Part shown: positions 1 to 4,976 of the stretch, piece by piece
Layout of the letters: each line of letters starts with the position of its first letter
How positions within the stretch are numbered: the stretch's first letter is position 1
Virus record (IMG/VR): IMGVR_UViG_2681813267_000006
Location: 1 to 4,976 of that record
Source: a virus
Taxonomy: Duplodnaviria > Heunggongvirae > Uroviricota > Caudoviricetes
Direction: 5' to 3' (one strand)
DNA: 4,976 bases
Made by a program: the position numbers and the translations under genes
Notes under the pieces: model-generated
What the model was told of the DNA's origin: nothing
What the model saw: only the letters and a program-made list of their open reading frames with translations
Databases searched by the model: none

Positions 1-78
1 TAAAAAAAGAACAAATGGTAGTGTCCGCTATTGCCAGTACACCTCAAACAGATGTCTGGAAATATAGGGGCAAATCCA
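1..78 (+). mobile_element. Right terminus of an IS2-family (IS3 family) insertion sequence; the element body lies left of the window
   Basis: The sequence ending at 78 (ACAGATGTCTGGAAATATAGGGGCAAATCCA) matches the IS2 right inverted-repeat terminus as I remember it (outer ~32 bp). Further inward the sequence differs from my memory of IS2, so this is probably a relative rather than IS2 itself. The junction sits inside a holin reading frame. Confidence 0.6.
2..67 (+). CDS. C-terminal end of an IS transposase (OrfB-like), 5'-partial; runs in from the left edge
   Basis: The open frame from the window edge translates ...[12 protein letters not shown] and stops at TAG 65-67. The NRCLEI-stop ending matches the IS2 OrfB C-terminus as remembered. 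The stop lies inside the terminal inverted repeat, as is usual for IS3-family elements. Confidence 0.5.
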
Positions 79-222
79 CTTACGCTTATGACTTCCCAGC
101 ACACCAATCGCAGCCCACTGTGATGGACTGACCTGATCCAACCACTGCAAAAACCAGTAGCCGGCACTGCCGGCGGAGGTGCCGTAGGCAATGCCTGTTG
201 ATATTTTTTCCATCTGATACAT
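79..222 (-). pseudogene. S21-type pinholin (class II holin), 3'-truncated by the IS insertion
   Basis: Minus-strand ORF 28..222 begins [44 protein letters not shown], near-identical to the N-terminal ~44 residues of phage 21 S (dual-start motif, TMD1). After codon Ser (91-93) the frame gives [20 protein letters not shown], which has no similarity to S21 TMD2, and no alternative frame restores it. The break coincides with the IS terminus at 78. A G-rich SD-like stretch (GGGGGGCGGG) precedes the ATG at 220-222. Confidence 0.7.
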
Positions 223-252
223 ATCCCGCCCCCCGACAGACCTGTGCTATCG

Positions 253-288
253 GAAAGAAAAAAGGCCATCAGCAAAACTCTGATGGCC
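253..288 (-). terminator. Rho-independent terminator on the minus strand (tR'-like), just upstream of the holin
   Basis: Minus-strand hairpin GGCCATCAG-agttttg-CTGATGGCC (plus 264-288) followed by TTTTTTCTTTCC (plus 253-263). Confidence 0.6.
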
Positions 289-333
289 TGAATCACCTTT
301 ACCAATATTGTATGAAAAAACACGCACGACTAA

Positions 334-362
334 TTGACAATAATTTTCATTTCCATTAAAAA
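334..362 (+). promoter_or_regulatory. Candidate sigma70 promoter on the plus strand, antisense to the phage late transcript
   Basis: Perfect -35 TTGACA (334-339), 17-bp spacer, -10 TAAAAA (357-362, 4/6 to consensus). It lies about 35 bp upstream of a hairpin plus U-run on the same strand. Confidence 0.3.
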
Positions 363-397
363 AGATCGCGTAGCATTCTTAATTCATGAGGAACTTT

Positions 398-463
398 ACC
401 CGCCAGCAATCTGAGTAGCGAAAGCTGTTCATCCCCAATGTTTTTGCTGGCGGGTCCTTTTTT
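398..463 (+). terminator. Terminator-like structure on the plus strand: 12-bp stem, large structured loop, U-run
   Basis: ACCCGCCAGCAA (398-409) pairs with TTGCTGGCGGGT (444-455); the 34-nt loop contains an AGC-GAAA-GCT mini-hairpin; followed by CCTTTTTTC (456-464). The same inverted repeat would also fold in the minus-strand late transcript, but without a U-run. Confidence 0.35.
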
Positions 464-854
464 CTACGGTCCTCCTCCCCGGAGGGGGGCATTTCATTAT
501 TTTTCTAATCGTTACTGGTGAGAAGGCGGAAGAAAAAGCCAGTTCTTCGCCCCTAAATAACAGCATGATTCCAGTCCATGCAAAATCTGATTTCCAGCTC
601 ACACATACCGAGCGCTGTACAAAAAACCGCCAGCCAAGGCAGTTAAGAGTGTGTTCCCGGGGTTTGCTTAGAATATTTTGTAAGTTGTCCGAAGAGATAT
701 TTACAACACCAGAATGATGAATCATCAGTCCCCTGCCAGAGGTTCACTACGTAACCTGACCGACAATGCACCATTCTGGTGCTGAAAAAAGAGCACTGGA
801 ACTGCAACAAAACAACATCACAGAACAGGAGATGGTAAGGAGTCAGACATTCCC

Positions 855-868
855 ACACAATATTGTGT
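855..868. repeat. Perfect 14-bp palindrome ACACAATATTGTGT, candidate dimeric protein-binding site
   Basis: The sequence is its own reverse complement with no central spacer; it sits 35-48 bp downstream of the 3' end of the tRNA array. No U-run follows, so it is not a terminator. Confidence 0.4.
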
Positions 869-902
869 CAGTGCAAATAACAACCTTCGTCTCAAATCTC
901 GC

Positions 903-977
<75 letters not shown>

Positions 978-980
978 ATA

Positions 981-1056
<76 letters not shown>

Positions 1057-1058
1057 GC

Positions 1059-1135
1059 TGGCCCACCACCGAGGACTCGAACCTCGCACCGTCAACTTAG
1101 AAGGTTGATGCTCTATCCGGATGAGCTAGTGGTGG
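1059..1135 (-). tRNA. tRNA-Arg (anticodon UCU), phage-type
   Basis: Reverse complement CCACCACTAGCTCATCCGGATAGAGCATCAACCTTCTAAGTTGACGGTGCGAGGTTCGAGTCCTCGGTGGTGGGCCA; fully paired acceptor stem beginning with an unusual C1:G72, U8, A14, A20 and C35 (Arg identity elements), anticodon loop CTTCTAA, T-loop TTCGAGT, discriminator G73, encoded CCA. Confidence 0.8.
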
Positions 1136-1136
1136 T

Positions 1137-1213
1137 TGGTGGCCCTTGCTGGACTTGAACCAGCGACCTGGCGATTATGAGTCGCTCGCTCTGACCAACT
1201 GAGCTAAAGGGCC
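1137..1213 (-). tRNA. tRNA with CAU anticodon: Ile2 (lysidine, ileX/ileZ-like) or elongator Met
   Basis: Reverse complement GGCCCTTTAGCTCAGTTGGTCAGAGCGAGCGACTCATAATCGCCAGGTCGCTGGTTCAAGTCCAGCAAGGGCCACCA; the anticodon arm (GCGACTCATAATCGC) resembles E. coli ileX-type tRNA-Ile2 as remembered. Ile versus Met cannot be decided from sequence alone. Confidence 0.85.
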
Positions 1214-1222
1214 GGAGGCAGA

Positions 1223-1251
1223 ATAATAACCATATGTCATCACATCTGCAA
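1223..1251 (-). promoter_or_regulatory. Candidate promoter for the tRNA array
   Basis: Minus strand reads TTGCAG (plus 1246-1251), 17-bp spacer, TATTAT (plus 1223-1228, 5/6 to consensus), then 9 nt to the 5' end of the first tRNA. Confidence 0.35.
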
Positions 1252-1299
1252 ACTCATCTGACCACCAGCACGTTTAACGTCCTGTGCCGTTTTTCAGGT

Positions 1300-1324
1300 A
1301 TAAAAAAACCCGCATAAAGCGGGC
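1300..1324 (-). terminator. Short intrinsic terminator about 75 nt downstream of the Q-position gene
   Basis: Minus strand CCCGC-tttat-GCGGG followed by TTTTTTTA (plus A-run 1301-1308). Its position between the Q-like gene and the downstream tRNAs and lysis gene fits an early terminator of a short pR'-type transcript. Confidence 0.5.
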
Positions 1325-1402
1325 TCTTTCAAATGTCCATGTCTGCTATTCGCCTCGCGGTACAGCTTTGCGAAGCGTACAAGAATTGAAGCAGTTTTTA
1401 CG

Positions 1403-1957
1403 TCAAAAAGCAATAACTTTTTTCTCTATACCAAAAGCCATAACCATTGGTTTGTACAAAATAAATTCTGCCACCTTTAGCCAATGCTCAATGCGTCTTT
1501 CACAGGTTCTTAAACTCCATTTCGGGTGTGCATCATTCAGCAGTTCAGCCATTTTGCGTTTGGTCATCCCCCGCCCCTCATACCGTTGCCGAAGGACGCT
1601 AATCAATCCTGGATGCTCTGCCAGCACCTCACTTATGACCCGATCAATACATAACGCCTCTGCATCAGTACAATGCGCCAGCCAGCTCTTTTGCTTACCG
1701 TTAATCATATCCCGCAAAAAAGCCTCAAGTTCAGACTTGTTCAGACCTGCTTTTTTCATCCTCCGGAGCGCCTCGTTAATTGCCGTTTTTGTCAGCTTTT
1801 TAGAGGTCAACATCAGGTTAAACATATTCCCCGTCTTACCGCCACCAATATACGACCAGCGCCCCCACATACGTAGTTTTCCCTGAATCCAGACACTTTC
1901 CAGCGTGGTGAGACGAAGGTGTTCTCCGCTTTTTCCTGTATTCGTTGGGTAAATCAT
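1403..1957 (-). CDS. 185-aa protein in the late-antiterminator (Q) position; family not recognised
   Basis: ORF MIYPTNTGKSGEHLRL...EKKVIAF. The ATG at 1955-1957 is preceded by GGAGG at 7-nt spacing and overlaps the upstream stop (ATGA). The longer ORF from 2077 would overlap the upstream gene by ~120 nt and was not used. The Q call is positional only (last gene before a terminator, tRNAs and holin); the protein has only 3 Cys and no CxxC pairs, so it is not a lambda/82-type zinc-finger Q. Confidence 0.75.
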   Translation of the reverse strand: MIYPTNTGKSGEHLRLTTLESVWIQGKLRMWGRWSYIGGGKTGNMFNLMLTSKKLTKTAINEALRRMKKAGLNKSELEAFLRDMINGKQKSWLAHCTDAEALCIDRVISEVLAEHPGLISVLRQRYEGRGMTKRKMAELLNDAHPKWSLRTCERRIEHWLKVAEFILYKPMVMAFGIEKKVIAF

Positions 1958-2244
1958 AAATATCCCTCCTTTCTCCAGATTTCTTGTGTGCGAAAAACAC
2001 CTTCTGCATGCATCAGGCGTAATTCTTCTTTGGTGTAATCGCTGGTTTTTACCCGCCCGTCGATTAAATCGTGGCACGAGCTACAGGCAATCGCTGCCTG
2101 CATATCGTGTGGCTTTATCGCTGTTCCGCACGTTCCCGCCAGTCGGTAATGCGCCAGCACAGACGTTTCCGGATCGTGATTGCAGTAGCCAGGAATTCTG
2201 ACGGTGCACATCTGCCCCCGCGCCGCTTTACGTAAATCCACCAT
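1954..2244 (-). CDS. ybcO: YbcO-like DUF1364 phage protein (putative zinc-binding nuclease of the Nin region)
   Basis: 96-aa ORF MVDLRKAARGQMCTVRIPGYCNHDPETSVLAHYRL... with four conserved Cys, resembling DLP12 YbcO as remembered. Its start overlaps the upstream stop (TAATG) and its stop overlaps the downstream start (ATGA). Confidence 0.8.
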   Translation of the reverse strand: MVDLRKAARGQMCTVRIPGYCNHDPETSVLAHYRLAGTCGTAIKPHDMQAAIACSSCHDLIDGRVKTSDYTKEELRLMHAEGVFRTQEIWRKEGYL

Positions 2245-2843
2245 TACGCAAACTCCAGCAGCTGCGCGGCCACATTTTCGACTTGTTCCGGAGAGGAAAA
2301 TTTACGGAACAGAATCCAGTTCCACAGCACATTCAGAACAGATTTATAAACCTGCTGAAACTCGGTTTCGTCCATATTCGCAAAAGCGATGGATTTTGCC
2401 CGACGCCCGCGGCTACCGTCCGGATAAAAATGTTCGGTGTAAAATCCAGCCTGAATGGTTACCCACTCGCGAAAAGCCTCAAACGACTTTAGCAATGCCG
2501 TATCCCGGGTTCTGCGTGTCGCAACTGTATTCAGATATTGCTCTGCGGCTTCGCTCAGAGCTGGCGTATGTTCCCGACCTACTGATTCGCACAGGTAATC
2601 AACGAAACCAGACAGCAGTTCTCGTTCGCGAGGCGTGATCGCCCCACCGACCGGAGTCCAGTAATCGAAACCCAGTTGCAGGAGTTTGAAAAAACGCTTG
2701 TGGAATGCGTAGTTACACACACGCTTAAAGTCTGCGTGTATCCACTCACCTATTTTGATTTGATGCAGAAAATCGCAACTCTCCGGCGTCGCCGGGAGAA
2801 GTAATCCGGAAGAGGTTTGTTTGACCAGTTGTATATGTGCCAT
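2244..2843 (-). CDS. Conserved lambdoid Nin-region protein (~199 aa), possibly YbcN-like; function unknown
   Basis: ORF from ATG 2841-2843 (MAHIQLVKQTSSGLLLPATPE...AAQLLEFA), with GGAG about 10 nt upstream. The longer ORF from 2885 has no ribosome-binding site. It is translationally coupled to the ybcO-like gene. The family assignment is tentative and from memory only. Confidence 0.75.
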   Translation of the reverse strand: MAHIQLVKQTSSGLLLPATPESCDFLHQIKIGEWIHADFKRVCNYAFHKRFFKLLQLGFDYWTPVGGAITPRERELLSGFVDYLCESVGREHTPALSEAAEQYLNTVATRRTRDTALLKSFEAFREWVTIQAGFYTEHFYPDGSRGRRAKSIAFANMDETEFQQVYKSVLNVLWNWILFRKFSSPEQVENVAAQLLEFA

Positions 2844-2881
2844 CGGCTTTCTCCGGTGGCACGGTGTTACACAGCAGGAGT

Positions 2882-3169
2882 TCAATCCTGCTCAAGATTG
2901 TAGATGAGTTTATTCTTCAGCAAAAGCAGAAAACCAGCCTTAAAACCAATCTCTTTCAAAACCCGTAATGATGTGACAAATTCGTCCTCACGCAAAATAA
3001 AACCGTCCGTCAGAAGTCCATTACAAAAATAAAATAACACAGCACCGCTCTTCCTTTGTTGAGATTGCAAACATCTAATGCGGCAATGGCTGACAATCGC
3101 TCCATTCTCAACGCGCACAGCATAGAGGCCATTTTCACTAAAAATTTCACGCAATTCTTCGATTTTCAT
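2882..3169 (-). CDS. Hypothetical 95-aa protein
   Basis: ORF MKIEELREIFSENGLYAVRVENGAIVSHCRIRCLQ...; GGAAGGA about 8 nt upstream of the ATG at 3167-3169; own promoter-like element upstream; lies just downstream of the hok terminator. No recognisable family. Confidence 0.55.
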   Translation of the reverse strand: MKIEELREIFSENGLYAVRVENGAIVSHCRIRCLQSQQRKSGAVLFYFCNGLLTDGFILREDEFVTSLRVLKEIGFKAGFLLLLKNKLIYNLEQD

Positions 3170-3250
3170 CTTCAGAATCCTTCCAGATAAATAGCTCTCC
3201 CCTGTTCGGGGTCCATCCCTCTTCTCCCTGCGCGCTACTTAAGTGAGTCG

Positions 3251-3278
3251 ATTCTATCTGCGAAGGTGCGCGAATCAA
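3251..3278 (-). promoter_or_regulatory. Candidate promoter for the 95-aa ORF
   Basis: Minus strand TTGATT (plus 3273-3278), 16-bp spacer, TAGAAT (plus 3251-3256). These are the same hexamers as the predicted hok promoter. Confidence 0.4.
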
Positions 3279-3287
3279 ATTCACCGG

Positions 3288-3343
3288 AAATAAACAACAA
3301 AAAACCCGCCGAAACGCTGAGAGATCACAGCGATGGGCGGGTT
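3288..3343 (-). terminator. Rho-independent terminator ending the hok transcript
   Basis: Minus strand AACCCGCC ... GGCGGGTT with an internal CGCTG/CAGCG sub-stem, followed by TTTTTTGTTGTTT (plus A-run 3290-3304). Confidence 0.6.
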
Positions 3344-3418
3344 AAGTGCGGGTGCGTTGAGGATGCCTGACACATCAGAGGTGGGCGGGGATGGGATCAG
3401 CTCCCCGCCCGGTCACTC

Positions 3419-3574
3419 TTACTTCCTGGATTCGTAGTCTACGAAGACAGCGACCTCCGTCTGGCCGGTTCGGATTCGTACCTCACAGAGGTCTTTCCTC
3501 GTTACCAGTGCCGTCACTATGACGGTTAAACAGATGACGATCAGGGCGATTAACATCGCCTTTTGCTGCTTCAT
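3419..3574 (-). CDS. hok: Hok/Gef-family type I toxin (51 aa)
   Basis: MKQQKAMLIALIVICLTVIVTALVTRKDLCEVRIRTGQTEVAVFVDYESRK: single transmembrane helix plus conserved C-terminal motif, nearly identical to HokD/HokC as remembered except at the extreme C-terminus. AAGGAG lies about 9 nt upstream of the ATG. Confidence 0.9.
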   Translation of the reverse strand: MKQQKAMLIALIVICLTVIVTALVTRKDLCEVRIRTGQTEVAVFVDYESRK

Positions 3575-3631
3575 AGCCTGCTTCTCCTTGCCTTTCGGCA
3601 TGTAAGAGGCTAACCTACATGTGCAAAGCAT
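3419..3631 (-). CDS. mok: mok-like overlapping reading frame (in-frame N-terminal extension of hok, 70 aa)
   Basis: The in-frame upstream ATG at 3629-3631 gives MLCTCRLASYMPKGKEKQA + Hok, the same arrangement as MokC/HokC. Confidence 0.55.
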   Translation of the reverse strand: MLCTCRLASYMPKGKEKQAMKQQKAMLIALIVICLTVIVTALVTRKDLCEVRIRTGQTEVAVFVDYESRK

Positions 3632-3685
3632 GAAATTGGCCTCAGATTAATGTTAAGCGTCTTGCCGGACGCGTAATGTTAACTG
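3623..3685 (+). ncRNA. sok: Predicted Sok-type antisense RNA (coordinates approximate)
   Basis: Expected from hok/sok architecture. Candidate plus-strand promoter TTGCCT (3588-3593), 17-bp spacer, TAACCT (3611-3616); hairpin GCGTC-ttgccg-GACGC (3657-3672) followed by GTAATGTT. The transcript would be complementary to the mok start region. The promoter match is weak. Confidence 0.25.
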
Positions 3686-3750
3686 GGGCTTTTCTCTATC
3701 TGCCTTTTGGTGTTCATGCCTGAAGCAGATAGCCTCAAGCACCCGCAGTC

Positions 3751-3780
3751 ATTCTACTTACCTCGCCAATATGAAATCAA
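3751..3780 (-). promoter_or_regulatory. Candidate hok/mok promoter
   Basis: Minus strand TTGATT (plus 3775-3780), 18-bp spacer, TAGAAT (plus 3751-3756). The predicted transcript 5' end near 3745 carries UGCGGGUGC, which is complementary to GCACCCGCA (plus 3347-3355) just upstream of the terminator, resembling the 5'/3' pairing of hok mRNAs. Confidence 0.35.
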
Positions 3781-3801
3781 TCAGAAAGGTGCCCCATAAA
3801 A

Positions 3802-4488
3802 TCACTCCTTCTCTTCTTTACCGTAGTGGAGTTGACCAATTTTGATAAGAGGGCGTCCCTGAGATTTGCGGTGTAGATTGGTATCGCGCAGAGAATACAC
3901 ACAGCCACAATATTCCTGCTGATAGAATTTTTCGCGCTTGCTGATTTCAATCATACGGGACGAGCCGCCCTGCTTGCGCCAGTTATAATCCCAGTACACC
4001 ATGCCCGGATAATGCGCGACGGCTCGCCGCCCACAGTCGTTAACCTGCTGCATATTTTTCCAGCGTGAAATGCCCAGTGAACTGCTGATCACACTGAAAC
4101 CATTTTCAGCGGCGTACAGCGCTGTCCGCTCAAAACGCATGTCAAAACACATGGTGCAACGGATCCCTCGTTCGGGCTCCCATTCCATTCCTTTGGCTCG
4201 TTCAAACCAGTTGTCTGTGTCGTAATCAGCATCAATAAACGGCACGCCGTGTTGTTCAGCAAAGCGAATATTCTCATCCTTACGAATTAAATACTCTTTC
4301 TGAGGATGAATGTTCGGGTTGTAGAAAAAGATGGTGTAGTCGATTCCCGAGGCCTGAAGCGCCTCCATCACCTCACCGGAACATGGAGCACAGCAAGAGT
4401 GCAGTAGTAGTTTGTTTGCCCCGTTTGGGAGCTCCAATTTGGGCCGTTTGAAATCAGCAACTGTCATAAATATGTTTATTGGGGTCAT
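3802..4488 (-). CDS. queH: QueH-type epoxyqueuosine reductase homologue (DUF208 family), 228 aa
   Basis: ORF contains the family hallmarks [18 protein letters not shown], RCxMCFxMR and YCGCVYS. The start is uncertain: ATG 4486-4488 or ATG 4465-4467, neither with a strong SD. Confidence 0.8.
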
Positions 4489-4635
4489 AAAAATATCAAA
4501 GAGTGTAGCATTAGAACGGGGCTATCGGAAACAGATGTGTGACTGCTCCCCGCCCTTTCGGGTGGTCTCCTGATGATTTGAGGGTGCAGAAATCCCTCCG
4601 GTTAAGGATTAAATTTTTAACAGTGCTAAATTTAA

Positions 4636-4976
4636 TTATTCAGTTCTGGATTTTGTCGCCCTGCGTATCCGCGCTTTCGCGTTACGCTCAATCTGTATCA
4701 GCTTTTCTATATTTCTCCGCCTTTCCTGTTCCTCCTGGCGCAATAGCCTTACATCATCTGCCAGTCTGGTTTCTCTTTTTGCCACAGAGAGCATCCAGTC
4801 AAACGGCTCCACAACCGCACCGCAGATTTTACAGCGGACCTGACGCTCTTTTTCGTCAACCCGGACAGAGGCGTGATGGCAATATGGTCTTTCCGATGGT
4901 TCATAAAGAAAATTAACCTGATTACGTGGGTCATCCTCTTTTACCGGAAATAAAACGATATTGCTTAACTCATCTT
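4636..4976 (-). CDS. 3' end of an unidentified protein (5'-partial; start lies right of the window)
   Basis: The minus-strand frame is open for 112 codons from the window edge to TAA (4636-4638): DELSNIVLFPVKEDDPRNQVNFLYEPSERPYCHHASVRVDEKERQVRCKICGAVVEPFDWMLSVAKRETRLADDVRLLRQEEQERRRNIEKLIQIERNAKARIRRATKSRTE. Protein-like composition with a C-HH...C-x2-C motif and a basic, probably helical tail. The provided ORF track omits it because it has no in-window start. Confidence 0.55.
   Translation of the reverse strand, partial: DELSNIVLFPVKEDDPRNQVNFLYEPSERPYCHHASVRVDEKERQVRCKICGAVVEPFDWMLSVAKRETRLADDVRLLRQEEQERRRNIEKLIQIERNAKARIRRATKSRTE

What the first reader, a model, noticed from the sequence alone, without database searches (positions are those of the whole stretch)
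1..222. Pinholin gene cut by an IS2-family element: the prophage lysis cassette looks inactivated
The holin ORF matches S21-type pinholin through TMD1 and the start of TMD2, then changes abruptly to unrelated sequence. 12 bp further on (79-90, origin unexplained) the unmistakable IS2-type terminus ...GGGGCAAATCCA begins, and a transposase-like C-terminus (NRCLEI-stop) reads in from the window edge. A pinholin without TMD2 should not trigger lysis, so the prophage is probably trapped in the chromosome while its tRNA, QueH and Hok cargo remain intact. The 12 bp between the last holin codon and the IS end suggest either a more complex rearrangement (IS-mediated deletion) or a divergent holin.
Basis: partly seen in the sequence, partly recalled or inferred. 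Interest (0 to 1): 0.55.

Follow-up and report, generated by a model that had tools for sequence, protein, structure and literature searches.

The report
IS-wrecked phage holin in Shigella sonnei
The left end of this short Shigella sonnei draft contig holds a dead phage-21-type holin gene followed by scraps of two insertion sequences, which is ordinary prophage decay and may be partly a mis-assembly.

Summary

- **1-46:** the right end of IS600.
- **47-78:** the last 32 bp of IS2.
- **79-89:** the holin's own codons 63-66. This is the exact IS2 insertion flank found in S. sonnei complete genomes.
- **90-222 (-):** holin codons 1-44.

IS2 therefore did not cut TMD2. It sits after codon 66 of 71, with a 5-bp duplication GTAAG in relatives. 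That allele is on record in 234 blocks of the assembly collection and is named S. sonnei by its sources. It is absent from 5426 complete E. coli genomes.

TMD2 is missing because of a separate 54-bp in-frame deletion. That deletion and the IS600/IS2 joint occur only in this contig.

The window is the whole contig CXAV01000219.1, so nothing beyond IS600 can be seen.

Two facts weaken the tail. Sibling short-read assemblies carry obvious mis-joins in the same segment. Also, window 90-944 carries the variants of a second prophage copy with an intact holin, while the tail comes from the IS2-cut copy. The deletion, or its link to the tRNA/QueH/Hok cargo, may therefore be an assembly chimera.

This is ordinary Shigella IS-driven prophage decay and of low interest.

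The parts
1..46 (+). Right end of IS600 (IS3 family): transposase stop codon TAA at 1-3, terminal inverted repeat ending ...GTACACCTCA at 46. The contig starts here, so the rest of IS600 is not available.
   Evidence: 46/46 identical to L003 2001-2046, at the end of a CDS annotated 'IS3-like element IS600 family transposase'. The same 46-47 bp recur at IS600 ends in S. sonnei and S. boydii loci.
47..78 (+). Last 32 bp of IS2 (right inverted repeat), including the last six transposase codons N-R-C-L-E-I-stop at 47-67. The element is truncated or interrupted on its inner side by IS600.
   Evidence: 32/32 identical to L002 2502-2533 and to the IS2 end in S. sonnei L028/L007. The IS600/IS2 joint was found nowhere else.
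79..89 (-). Retained 3' fragment of the holin: last two bases of codon D63, then K64, R65, K66. It includes cttac, the 5-bp IS2 target GTAAG on the coding strand.
   Evidence: Window 47-89 is 43/43 identical to S. sonnei L007 454-496 and L028 6179-6221. In L028, GTAAG is duplicated on both sides of the complete IS2.
89..90 (.). Junction of a 54-bp in-frame deletion relative to the common S. sonnei allele. It removes L45-D63 (almost all of TMD2) and creates a His codon. There is no microhomology at the ends.
   Evidence: L007 497-550 and L028 6125-6178 are absent from the window. The junction was found in no other sequence.
90..222 (-). Holin codons 1-44 plus one base: M1 at 220-222, alternative start M4 at 211-213, TMD1 and the first 9 residues of TMD2.
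   Evidence: 100% identical to intact 'class II holin family protein' genes. Pfam PF04971 covers residues 5-44. The intact allele is 91.5% identical to phage 21 S.
28..222 (-). The resulting 64-aa fusion ORF: holin 1-44, then H, K, R, K, then 16 residues read from IS2 and IS600 DNA ([16 protein letters not shown]). It is annotated in the source record from M4 as the 61-aa 'lysis protein S'.
   Evidence: P0001, singleton on a 4976-bp contig. The hydropathy peak of TMD2 is lost: 2.05 falls to 0.29.

Best explanation
Window 1-222 is the decayed lysis-gene end of a lambdoid prophage in Shigella sonnei. The proposed order of events follows.

1. **IS2 insertion (shown).** An S21-type (class II) pinholin gene received an IS2 insertion after codon K66, five codons before its stop, with the usual 5-bp duplication GTAAG. 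This is the common S. sonnei allele.
2. **54-bp deletion (present in the contig; its reality in the cell is inferred).** An in-frame deletion starting 11 bp outside the IS2 end removed residues 45-63, which make up the second transmembrane helix.
3. **IS600 insertion (same status as step 2).** An IS600 copy landed inside IS2, 32 bp from its tip.

From established phage-21 work, TMD2 is the helix that oligomerises into the pinhole and TMD1 only restrains it. The remaining 64-aa product (TMD1 plus a junk tail) therefore cannot depolarise the membrane, and this holin copy is dead. No function is proposed beyond that of a pseudogene.
For: - **IS ends:** IS600 end 46/46; IS2 end 32/32.
- **Shared junction:** window 47-89 is identical to the S. 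sonnei holin::IS2 junction.
- **Canonical IS2 insertion in relatives:** a complete IS2 flanked by GTAAG, followed by lysozyme and Rz genes.
- **Distribution of the IS2-cut allele:** P0002 has 18 member sequences, is listed in 234 blocks of the collection and is named S. sonnei by its sources. No complete E. coli genome has it, 0 of 5426.
- **The deletion:** exactly 54 bp, in frame.
- **Loss of TMD2:** Pfam match truncated at profile position 40 of 64; TMD2 hydropathy peak abolished.
- **Family:** the intact allele is 91.5% identical to phage 21 S.
- **No overlap-merge signature:** the deletion ends share no bases, which argues against an overlap-merge artefact (sequence).
- **Context:** IS1/IS2/IS4/IS600/IS911 expansion, IS-within-IS and pseudogenisation are documented for Shigella (PMC7373316).
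Against: - The deletion and the IS600/IS2 joint exist in a single short-read draft contig and nowhere else searched.
- Sibling assemblies show clear mis-joins in the same 60-bp segment. One is a tandem duplication whose two units carry the variants of the two different holin copies.
- Window 90-944 is 100% the intact-holin copy type. It differs at 614/720/723 from the IS2-cut copy seen in other S. sonnei assemblies, including chromosome-sized records, so the tail may be joined to the wrong prophage.
- Three otherwise unseen base differences lie within 113 bp of the other contig end.
- A deletion 11 bp away from the IS end is not the classical IS-adjacent deletion.
Confidence: 0.55

Rival explanations
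1. Assembly chimera or artefact. The strain has two near-identical prophage copies. One carries an intact holin, lysozyme and Rz and is the source of window 90-4976. The other carries the ordinary IS2-cut holin. The assembler joined the first copy's holin 5' part to a short tail from the second copy. The 54-bp gap, and possibly the IS600/IS2 joint, is a product of that join or of a mis-resolved repeat.
For: - Window 90-944 is 100% identical to the intact copy in sibling L031. All IS2-cut copies examined differ at 614, 720 and 723.
- IS2-cut copies in the S. sonnei assemblies examined also carry an IS at window 768, and often one at 232. The window lacks both.
- L031, L029 and L030 show duplications or a deletion in the same TMD2 segment. 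L031's duplication mixes the ACA and ACG paralog variants.
- 81 member sequences of a partial holin (P0008) stop within this same TMD2 segment.
- The deletion allele is a singleton.
- L014, 99.92% identical to the window, has an intact lysis cassette.
Against: - The junction has no shared bases, so an overlap-based merge cannot have made it.
- The 89-bp tail chains three junctions within a span shorter than two reads, which suggests real reads carry them.
- A real recombinant between the two copies would look the same.
Confidence: 0.35
2. One reading: a single IS2-family element inserted within TMD2 truncates the holin, and its transposase gene runs in from the window edge.
For: The IS2 tip sits 12 bp from the point where holin homology ends.
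Against: - The 11 bp between them are holin codons 63-66, and the IS2 site is after codon 66.
- Bases 1-46 are IS600, not IS2.
Confidence: 0.02
3. A naturally divergent full-length holin with a different C-terminus.
For: None beyond the open reading frame of 64 codons.
Against: - The C-terminal 16 residues are translated IS2/IS600 terminal repeats.
- There is no second hydrophobic helix.
- Among 208 homologues, the only one with this C-terminus is the same contig's own annotation.
Confidence: 0.01
4. The TMD1-only remnant is kept as a trans-acting antiholin that delays lysis by the co-resident intact pinholin.
For: - The deletion is in frame. A sibling assembly has an independent in-frame 42-bp TMD2 deletion in the intact copy.
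- From my own recollection of phage-21 work, not checked here: TMD1 restrains TMD2.
Against: - It is a singleton allele.
- The junk tail comes from IS DNA.
- The sibling variants look like assembly errors.
- There is no expression evidence.
Confidence: 0.03

Closest known systems
Phage 21 pinholin S21 (S21 68 / S21 71), Pfam PF04971, class II holin
   Same: The N-terminal 44 residues are homologous. The intact allele is 91.5% identical over all 71 residues. It has the same M1/M4 double start position. In relatives it sits upstream of a lysozyme gene and an Rz gene; the lysozyme has a Gly/Ala-rich N-terminus of the signal-arrest-release type.
   Different: The window copy lacks residues 45-63 (TMD2) and the last five residues. 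It ends in IS-derived sequence and has no endolysin on the contig. The residues between M1 and M4 are Y-Q, whereas from memory S21 71 has K-S, so the extra positive charge of the antiholin form is absent.
Common S. sonnei 'lysis protein S' allele (P0002; holin::IS2, e.g. strain Ss046, CP000038)
   Same: Identical IS2 insertion point and flank (43/43 bases) and the same holin variant (GAT at codon 63).
   Different: The common allele keeps the full TMD2 and a complete 1.3-kb IS2 followed by lysozyme and Rz. The window has the additional 54-bp deletion and only 32 bp of IS2, abutted by IS600.
IS-driven pseudogenisation and IS-within-IS nesting in Shigella (Hawkey et al. 2020, PMC7373316)
   Same: IS2 and IS600 are two of the five IS expanded in all Shigella. 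The paper notes insertions of IS within other IS in reference genomes and large numbers of IS-inactivated genes.
   Different: Nothing in kind. This particular IS600-in-IS2 joint is not seen elsewhere.
essD, the S21-like holin of the E. coli K-12 cryptic prophage DLP12
   Same: Same holin family in a defective lambdoid prophage. EssD-named clusters are about 80% identical over the shared N-terminus (P0066, P0078).
   Different: The EssD-named full-length cluster (P0078) is an uninterrupted 71-aa protein. The window copy is interrupted and internally deleted.

Membership tests
S21-type pinholin (class II holin, PF04971) | Sequence homology to phage 21 S | tested here: met
   Pfam PF04971, E=1.1e-19, but only residues 5-44 and profile positions 1-40 of 64. 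The intact allele is 91.5% identical to phage 21 S.
S21-type pinholin (class II holin, PF04971) | Two transmembrane helices, with TMD2 as the hole-forming helix | tested here: not met
   Residues 45-63 are deleted. The 17-residue hydropathy maximum after residue 30 falls from 2.05 to 0.29. It is therefore a pseudogene of the family, not a functional member.
S21-type pinholin (class II holin, PF04971) | Dual-start motif giving holin and antiholin forms | tested here: inconclusive
   M1 and M4 are both present (MYQMEK). No basic residue lies between them, unlike MKSM in several relatives.
S21-type pinholin (class II holin, PF04971) | Followed by a SAR endolysin and a spanin gene | tested here: not met
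   These genes are not on this contig; IS2 and IS600 follow the holin instead. In S. sonnei complete genomes a lysozyme with N-terminus MSPSLRKAVAVAIGGGAVAIASVLITG and an Rz gene follow the IS2.
IS2 (IS3 family) | Terminal inverted repeat sequence | tested here: met
   32/32 bases identical to the IS2 right end.
IS2 (IS3 family) | 5-bp target duplication | tested here: met
   GTAAG lies on both sides of the complete IS2 at the same site in L028. Only one side is visible in the window.
IS2 (IS3 family) | Complete element with transposase genes | tested here: not met
   Only the last 32 bp are present. IS600 sequence begins at base 46 going inward.
IS600 (IS3 family) | Terminal sequence and transposase 3' end | tested here: met
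   46/46 bases identical to an annotated IS600 end, including the stop codon.
IS600 (IS3 family) | Complete element and 3-bp target duplication | not testable with these tools
   The contig ends 46 bp inside IS600.

The most novel reading that the evidence does not exclude
The in-frame loss of TMD2 is real and selected. A TMD1-only pinholin fragment, expressed from the late promoter of a cryptic prophage, acts in trans as an antiholin. It would delay or block lysis by the closely related intact prophage (or a superinfecting relative) in the same S. sonnei cell. The independent in-frame 42-bp TMD2 deletion in a sibling isolate would then be a second example.
Probability: 0.03. Interest if true: 0.5.

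Novelty: already known. Interest (0 to 1): 0.1.

Why it matters
It matters little. It is one more example of insertion sequences dismantling prophage genes in Shigella, a process already described at population scale. The useful lessons are practical. The IS2 cut in this holin looks like an S. sonnei marker: it is absent from 5426 complete E. coli genomes. The TMD2 region of this gene is also a trap in short-read assemblies, because two near-identical prophage copies coexist. 'Truncated holin' calls there should not be read as biology without read-level support.

Tried and rejected
- **Exact look-up of the 64-aa ORF:** failed because the record annotates it from M4. It was found through the homologue search.
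- **Scans for other copies of the junctions:** nothing was found for the IS2-holin-deletion junction in species-representative genomes. Nothing was found for the deletion junction in viral and metagenome contigs, or for the IS600/IS2 joint.
- **Upstream sequence beyond IS600:** impossible to obtain, because the window is the whole contig.
- **Classical IS-adjacent deletion:** rejected, because 11 bp of target remain next to the IS2 tip.
- **Slipped-strand deletion:** no direct repeat at the ends. The nearest GAAG repeats would give a 56-bp deletion, not 54 bp.
- **Inferring the assembler's k-mer from contig ends:** this was meant to decide between artefact and real deletion. The ends are inconsistent. 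There are 46 bp of IS600 at the left end and 0 bp of IS1 at the right end, if the window's strain has the IS1 seen at that site in sibling L017. I abandoned the attempt.
- **Divergent full-length holin:** rejected.

Full report
**What is at 1-222**

ORF listing and direct reading show a 64-codon ORF on the minus strand (28-222). Its first 44 residues are identical to intact 71-aa 'class II holin family proteins' of E. coli prophages. Megablast identity is 100% from window base 90 onward and stops there. Pfam PF04971 (phage P21 holin S) matches residues 5-44 only, profile positions 1-40 of 64. The intact relative matches positions 1-63. The intact allele is 91.5% identical over its full length to S of phage 21.

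**The IS part is two elements, not one**

- Window 47-78 is 32/32 identical to the right tip of IS2. NRCLEI-stop (47-67) is the end of the IS2 transposase.
- Window 1-46 is 46/46 identical to the right end of IS600. TAA at 1-3 is the IS600 transposase stop.
- IS2 is therefore reduced here to a 32-bp stub abutted by IS600. This joint was found nowhere else, neither in the fetched loci nor in the species-representative genomes. No complete E. coli genome covers both pieces as one continuous match.

**The 'unexplained 12 bp'**

Comparison with S. sonnei loci fetched through the QueH protein resolved this.

- Window 47-89 is 43/43 identical to the junction between IS2 and the same holin in strain Ss046 and other S. 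sonnei genomes.
- Window 90-232 matches 54 bp further on.
- In these genomes the holin reads ...[24 protein letters not shown], then a complete IS2, then GTAAG-GCTGCGAGAGGTGAATAATG and a 165-aa lysozyme and Rz.
- GTAAG is duplicated, so this is a canonical IS2 insertion after codon K66, five codons from the stop.
- Bases 79-89 are therefore holin codons 63-66.
- The window differs by a clean 54-bp in-frame deletion. It removes L45-D63 and creates one His codon, with no shared bases at its ends.
- The hydropathy peak of TMD2 disappears.

**Where the window comes from**

The homologue search found the window's own annotation. P0001 is a 61-aa 'lysis protein S [Shigella sonnei]', a singleton on a contig of 4976 bp. 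Look-up shows the window is the entire contig CXAV01000219.1 of draft assembly GCA_001254495.1. Nothing lies upstream of IS600 to inspect.

The undeleted IS2-cut allele (P0002, 91 aa) has 18 member sequences and is listed in 234 blocks of the collection, several of them with chromosome-sized contigs. None of 5426 complete E. coli genomes has that junction. The deletion junction was found nowhere else.

**Mechanism**

From established phage-21 work, partly echoed in PMC7312051, TMD1 leaves the membrane and TMD2 forms the small holes that trigger release of the signal-arrest-release endolysin. A product with TMD1 only cannot do this, so this copy is dead as written.

The common S. sonnei allele keeps TMD2 and loses only the last five residues. 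There, the main damage may instead be the 1.3-kb IS2 separating S from the lysozyme gene; this is inference.

Endolysins of this type can also leak out without a holin. Holin loss alone therefore does not prove a trapped prophage. The IS2-cut prophage in the S. sonnei assemblies examined is in any case riddled with other IS.

**Reasons for caution**

1. Sibling short-read drafts show aberrant versions of exactly this segment:
   - L031 has a 31-bp tandem duplication whose first unit carries the intact copy's variant (ACA) and whose second carries the IS2-cut copy's variant (ACG). That can only be a mis-join.
   - L029 has a 24-bp duplication plus AAG to TTT at the IS2 junction.
   - L030 has a 42-bp deletion.
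   - A partial-holin cluster with 81 member sequences (P0008) stops within this same segment.
2. S. sonnei strains can hold two near-identical copies, one with an intact holin plus lysozyme and one IS2-cut.
   - Window 90-944 is 100% identical to the intact copy of L031.
   - All IS2-cut copies examined differ at 614, 720 and 723. They also carry IS at window 768, and often at 232, which the window lacks.
   - L014, 99.92% identical to window 90-4976, has a complete lysis cassette.
   - The contig may therefore join one prophage's cargo to the other prophage's tail.
3. The right contig end coincides with an IS1 site in sibling L017. Three otherwise unseen differences lie within its last 113 bp.

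Against an artefact, the junction has no overlap that a merging step could have used. The 89-bp tail also links three junctions within a very short span. I put about 0.55 on the structure being real as written and about 0.35 on artefact or chimera.

**Comparison and novelty**

This is a pseudogene of the S21 pinholin family, hit by IS2 and then IS600. IS expansion, nesting and gene inactivation in Shigella are well described (PMC7373316). Nothing here is new in kind. The only non-trivial reading is a retained TMD1-only antiholin, which rests on an in-frame singleton deletion and is unlikely.

**Verdict**

- Observation: partly confirmed.
- Interpretation: partly supported.
- The feature is ordinary and partly of doubtful assembly quality; interest is low.

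Noticed in passing
window 903-1213 (-): Four tandem tRNA genes lie between the Q antiterminator gene and the holin: Gly-TCC, Thr-TGT, Arg-TCT and a CAT-anticodon tRNA. ARAGORN calls the last one Met, but RefSeq annotates tRNA-Ile at the corresponding position of relative L001. In S. sonnei L028 an IS replaces window 769-1142, removing most of this cluster.
   Followed up: partly
window 3419-3744 (-): A hok/sok toxin-antitoxin locus: Hok is called as 51 aa at 3419-3574, and there is an Rfam sok hit at 3569-3744 (117 bits, full model).
   Followed up: no
window 3802-4488 (-): A prophage-borne QueH (epoxyqueuosine reductase, PF02677). The 228-aa product is identical in S. boydii Sb227 and S. sonnei Ss046 prophage remnants.
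   Followed up: no
window 2385-2621: 16 of the 19 differences from relative L008 cluster in about 240 bp of the DUF1367 gene. The same patch separates the window/L014 type from the L008/L028 type, which looks like a small recombination patch.
   Followed up: partly
window 4864, 4900, 4927 and the contig end at 4976: Three bases differ from every relative compared at those positions, all within 113 bp of the right contig end. The contig stops exactly where sibling contig L017 has collapsed IS1 ends (GGTGATGCTGCCAACTTACTG...). This suggests a low-quality or paralog-mixed contig end.
   Followed up: partly
L029 764-971; L030 520-733; L031 2694-2860: Other S. sonnei draft assemblies carry a 24-bp duplication, a 42-bp in-frame deletion and a 31-bp paralog-chimeric duplication in the same TMD2-coding segment of this holin. 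This is probably a systematic mis-assembly hotspot caused by two holin paralogs.
   Followed up: partly
L007 (S. sonnei Ss046) 1-12000: In Ss046 the same prophage is scrambled. An IS110-family element sits at window position 232, an IS3-family element at 768, and IS600 abuts window 2537. The QueH-Hok-Rem block lies about 9 kb away in inverted orientation.
   Followed up: no
L002 2490-2590 (ETEC plasmid pE275a_90): A different IS2/IS600 juxtaposition: the IS2 right tip is followed directly by the last 52 bp of IS600, next to the heat-labile toxin genes eltAB.
   Followed up: no
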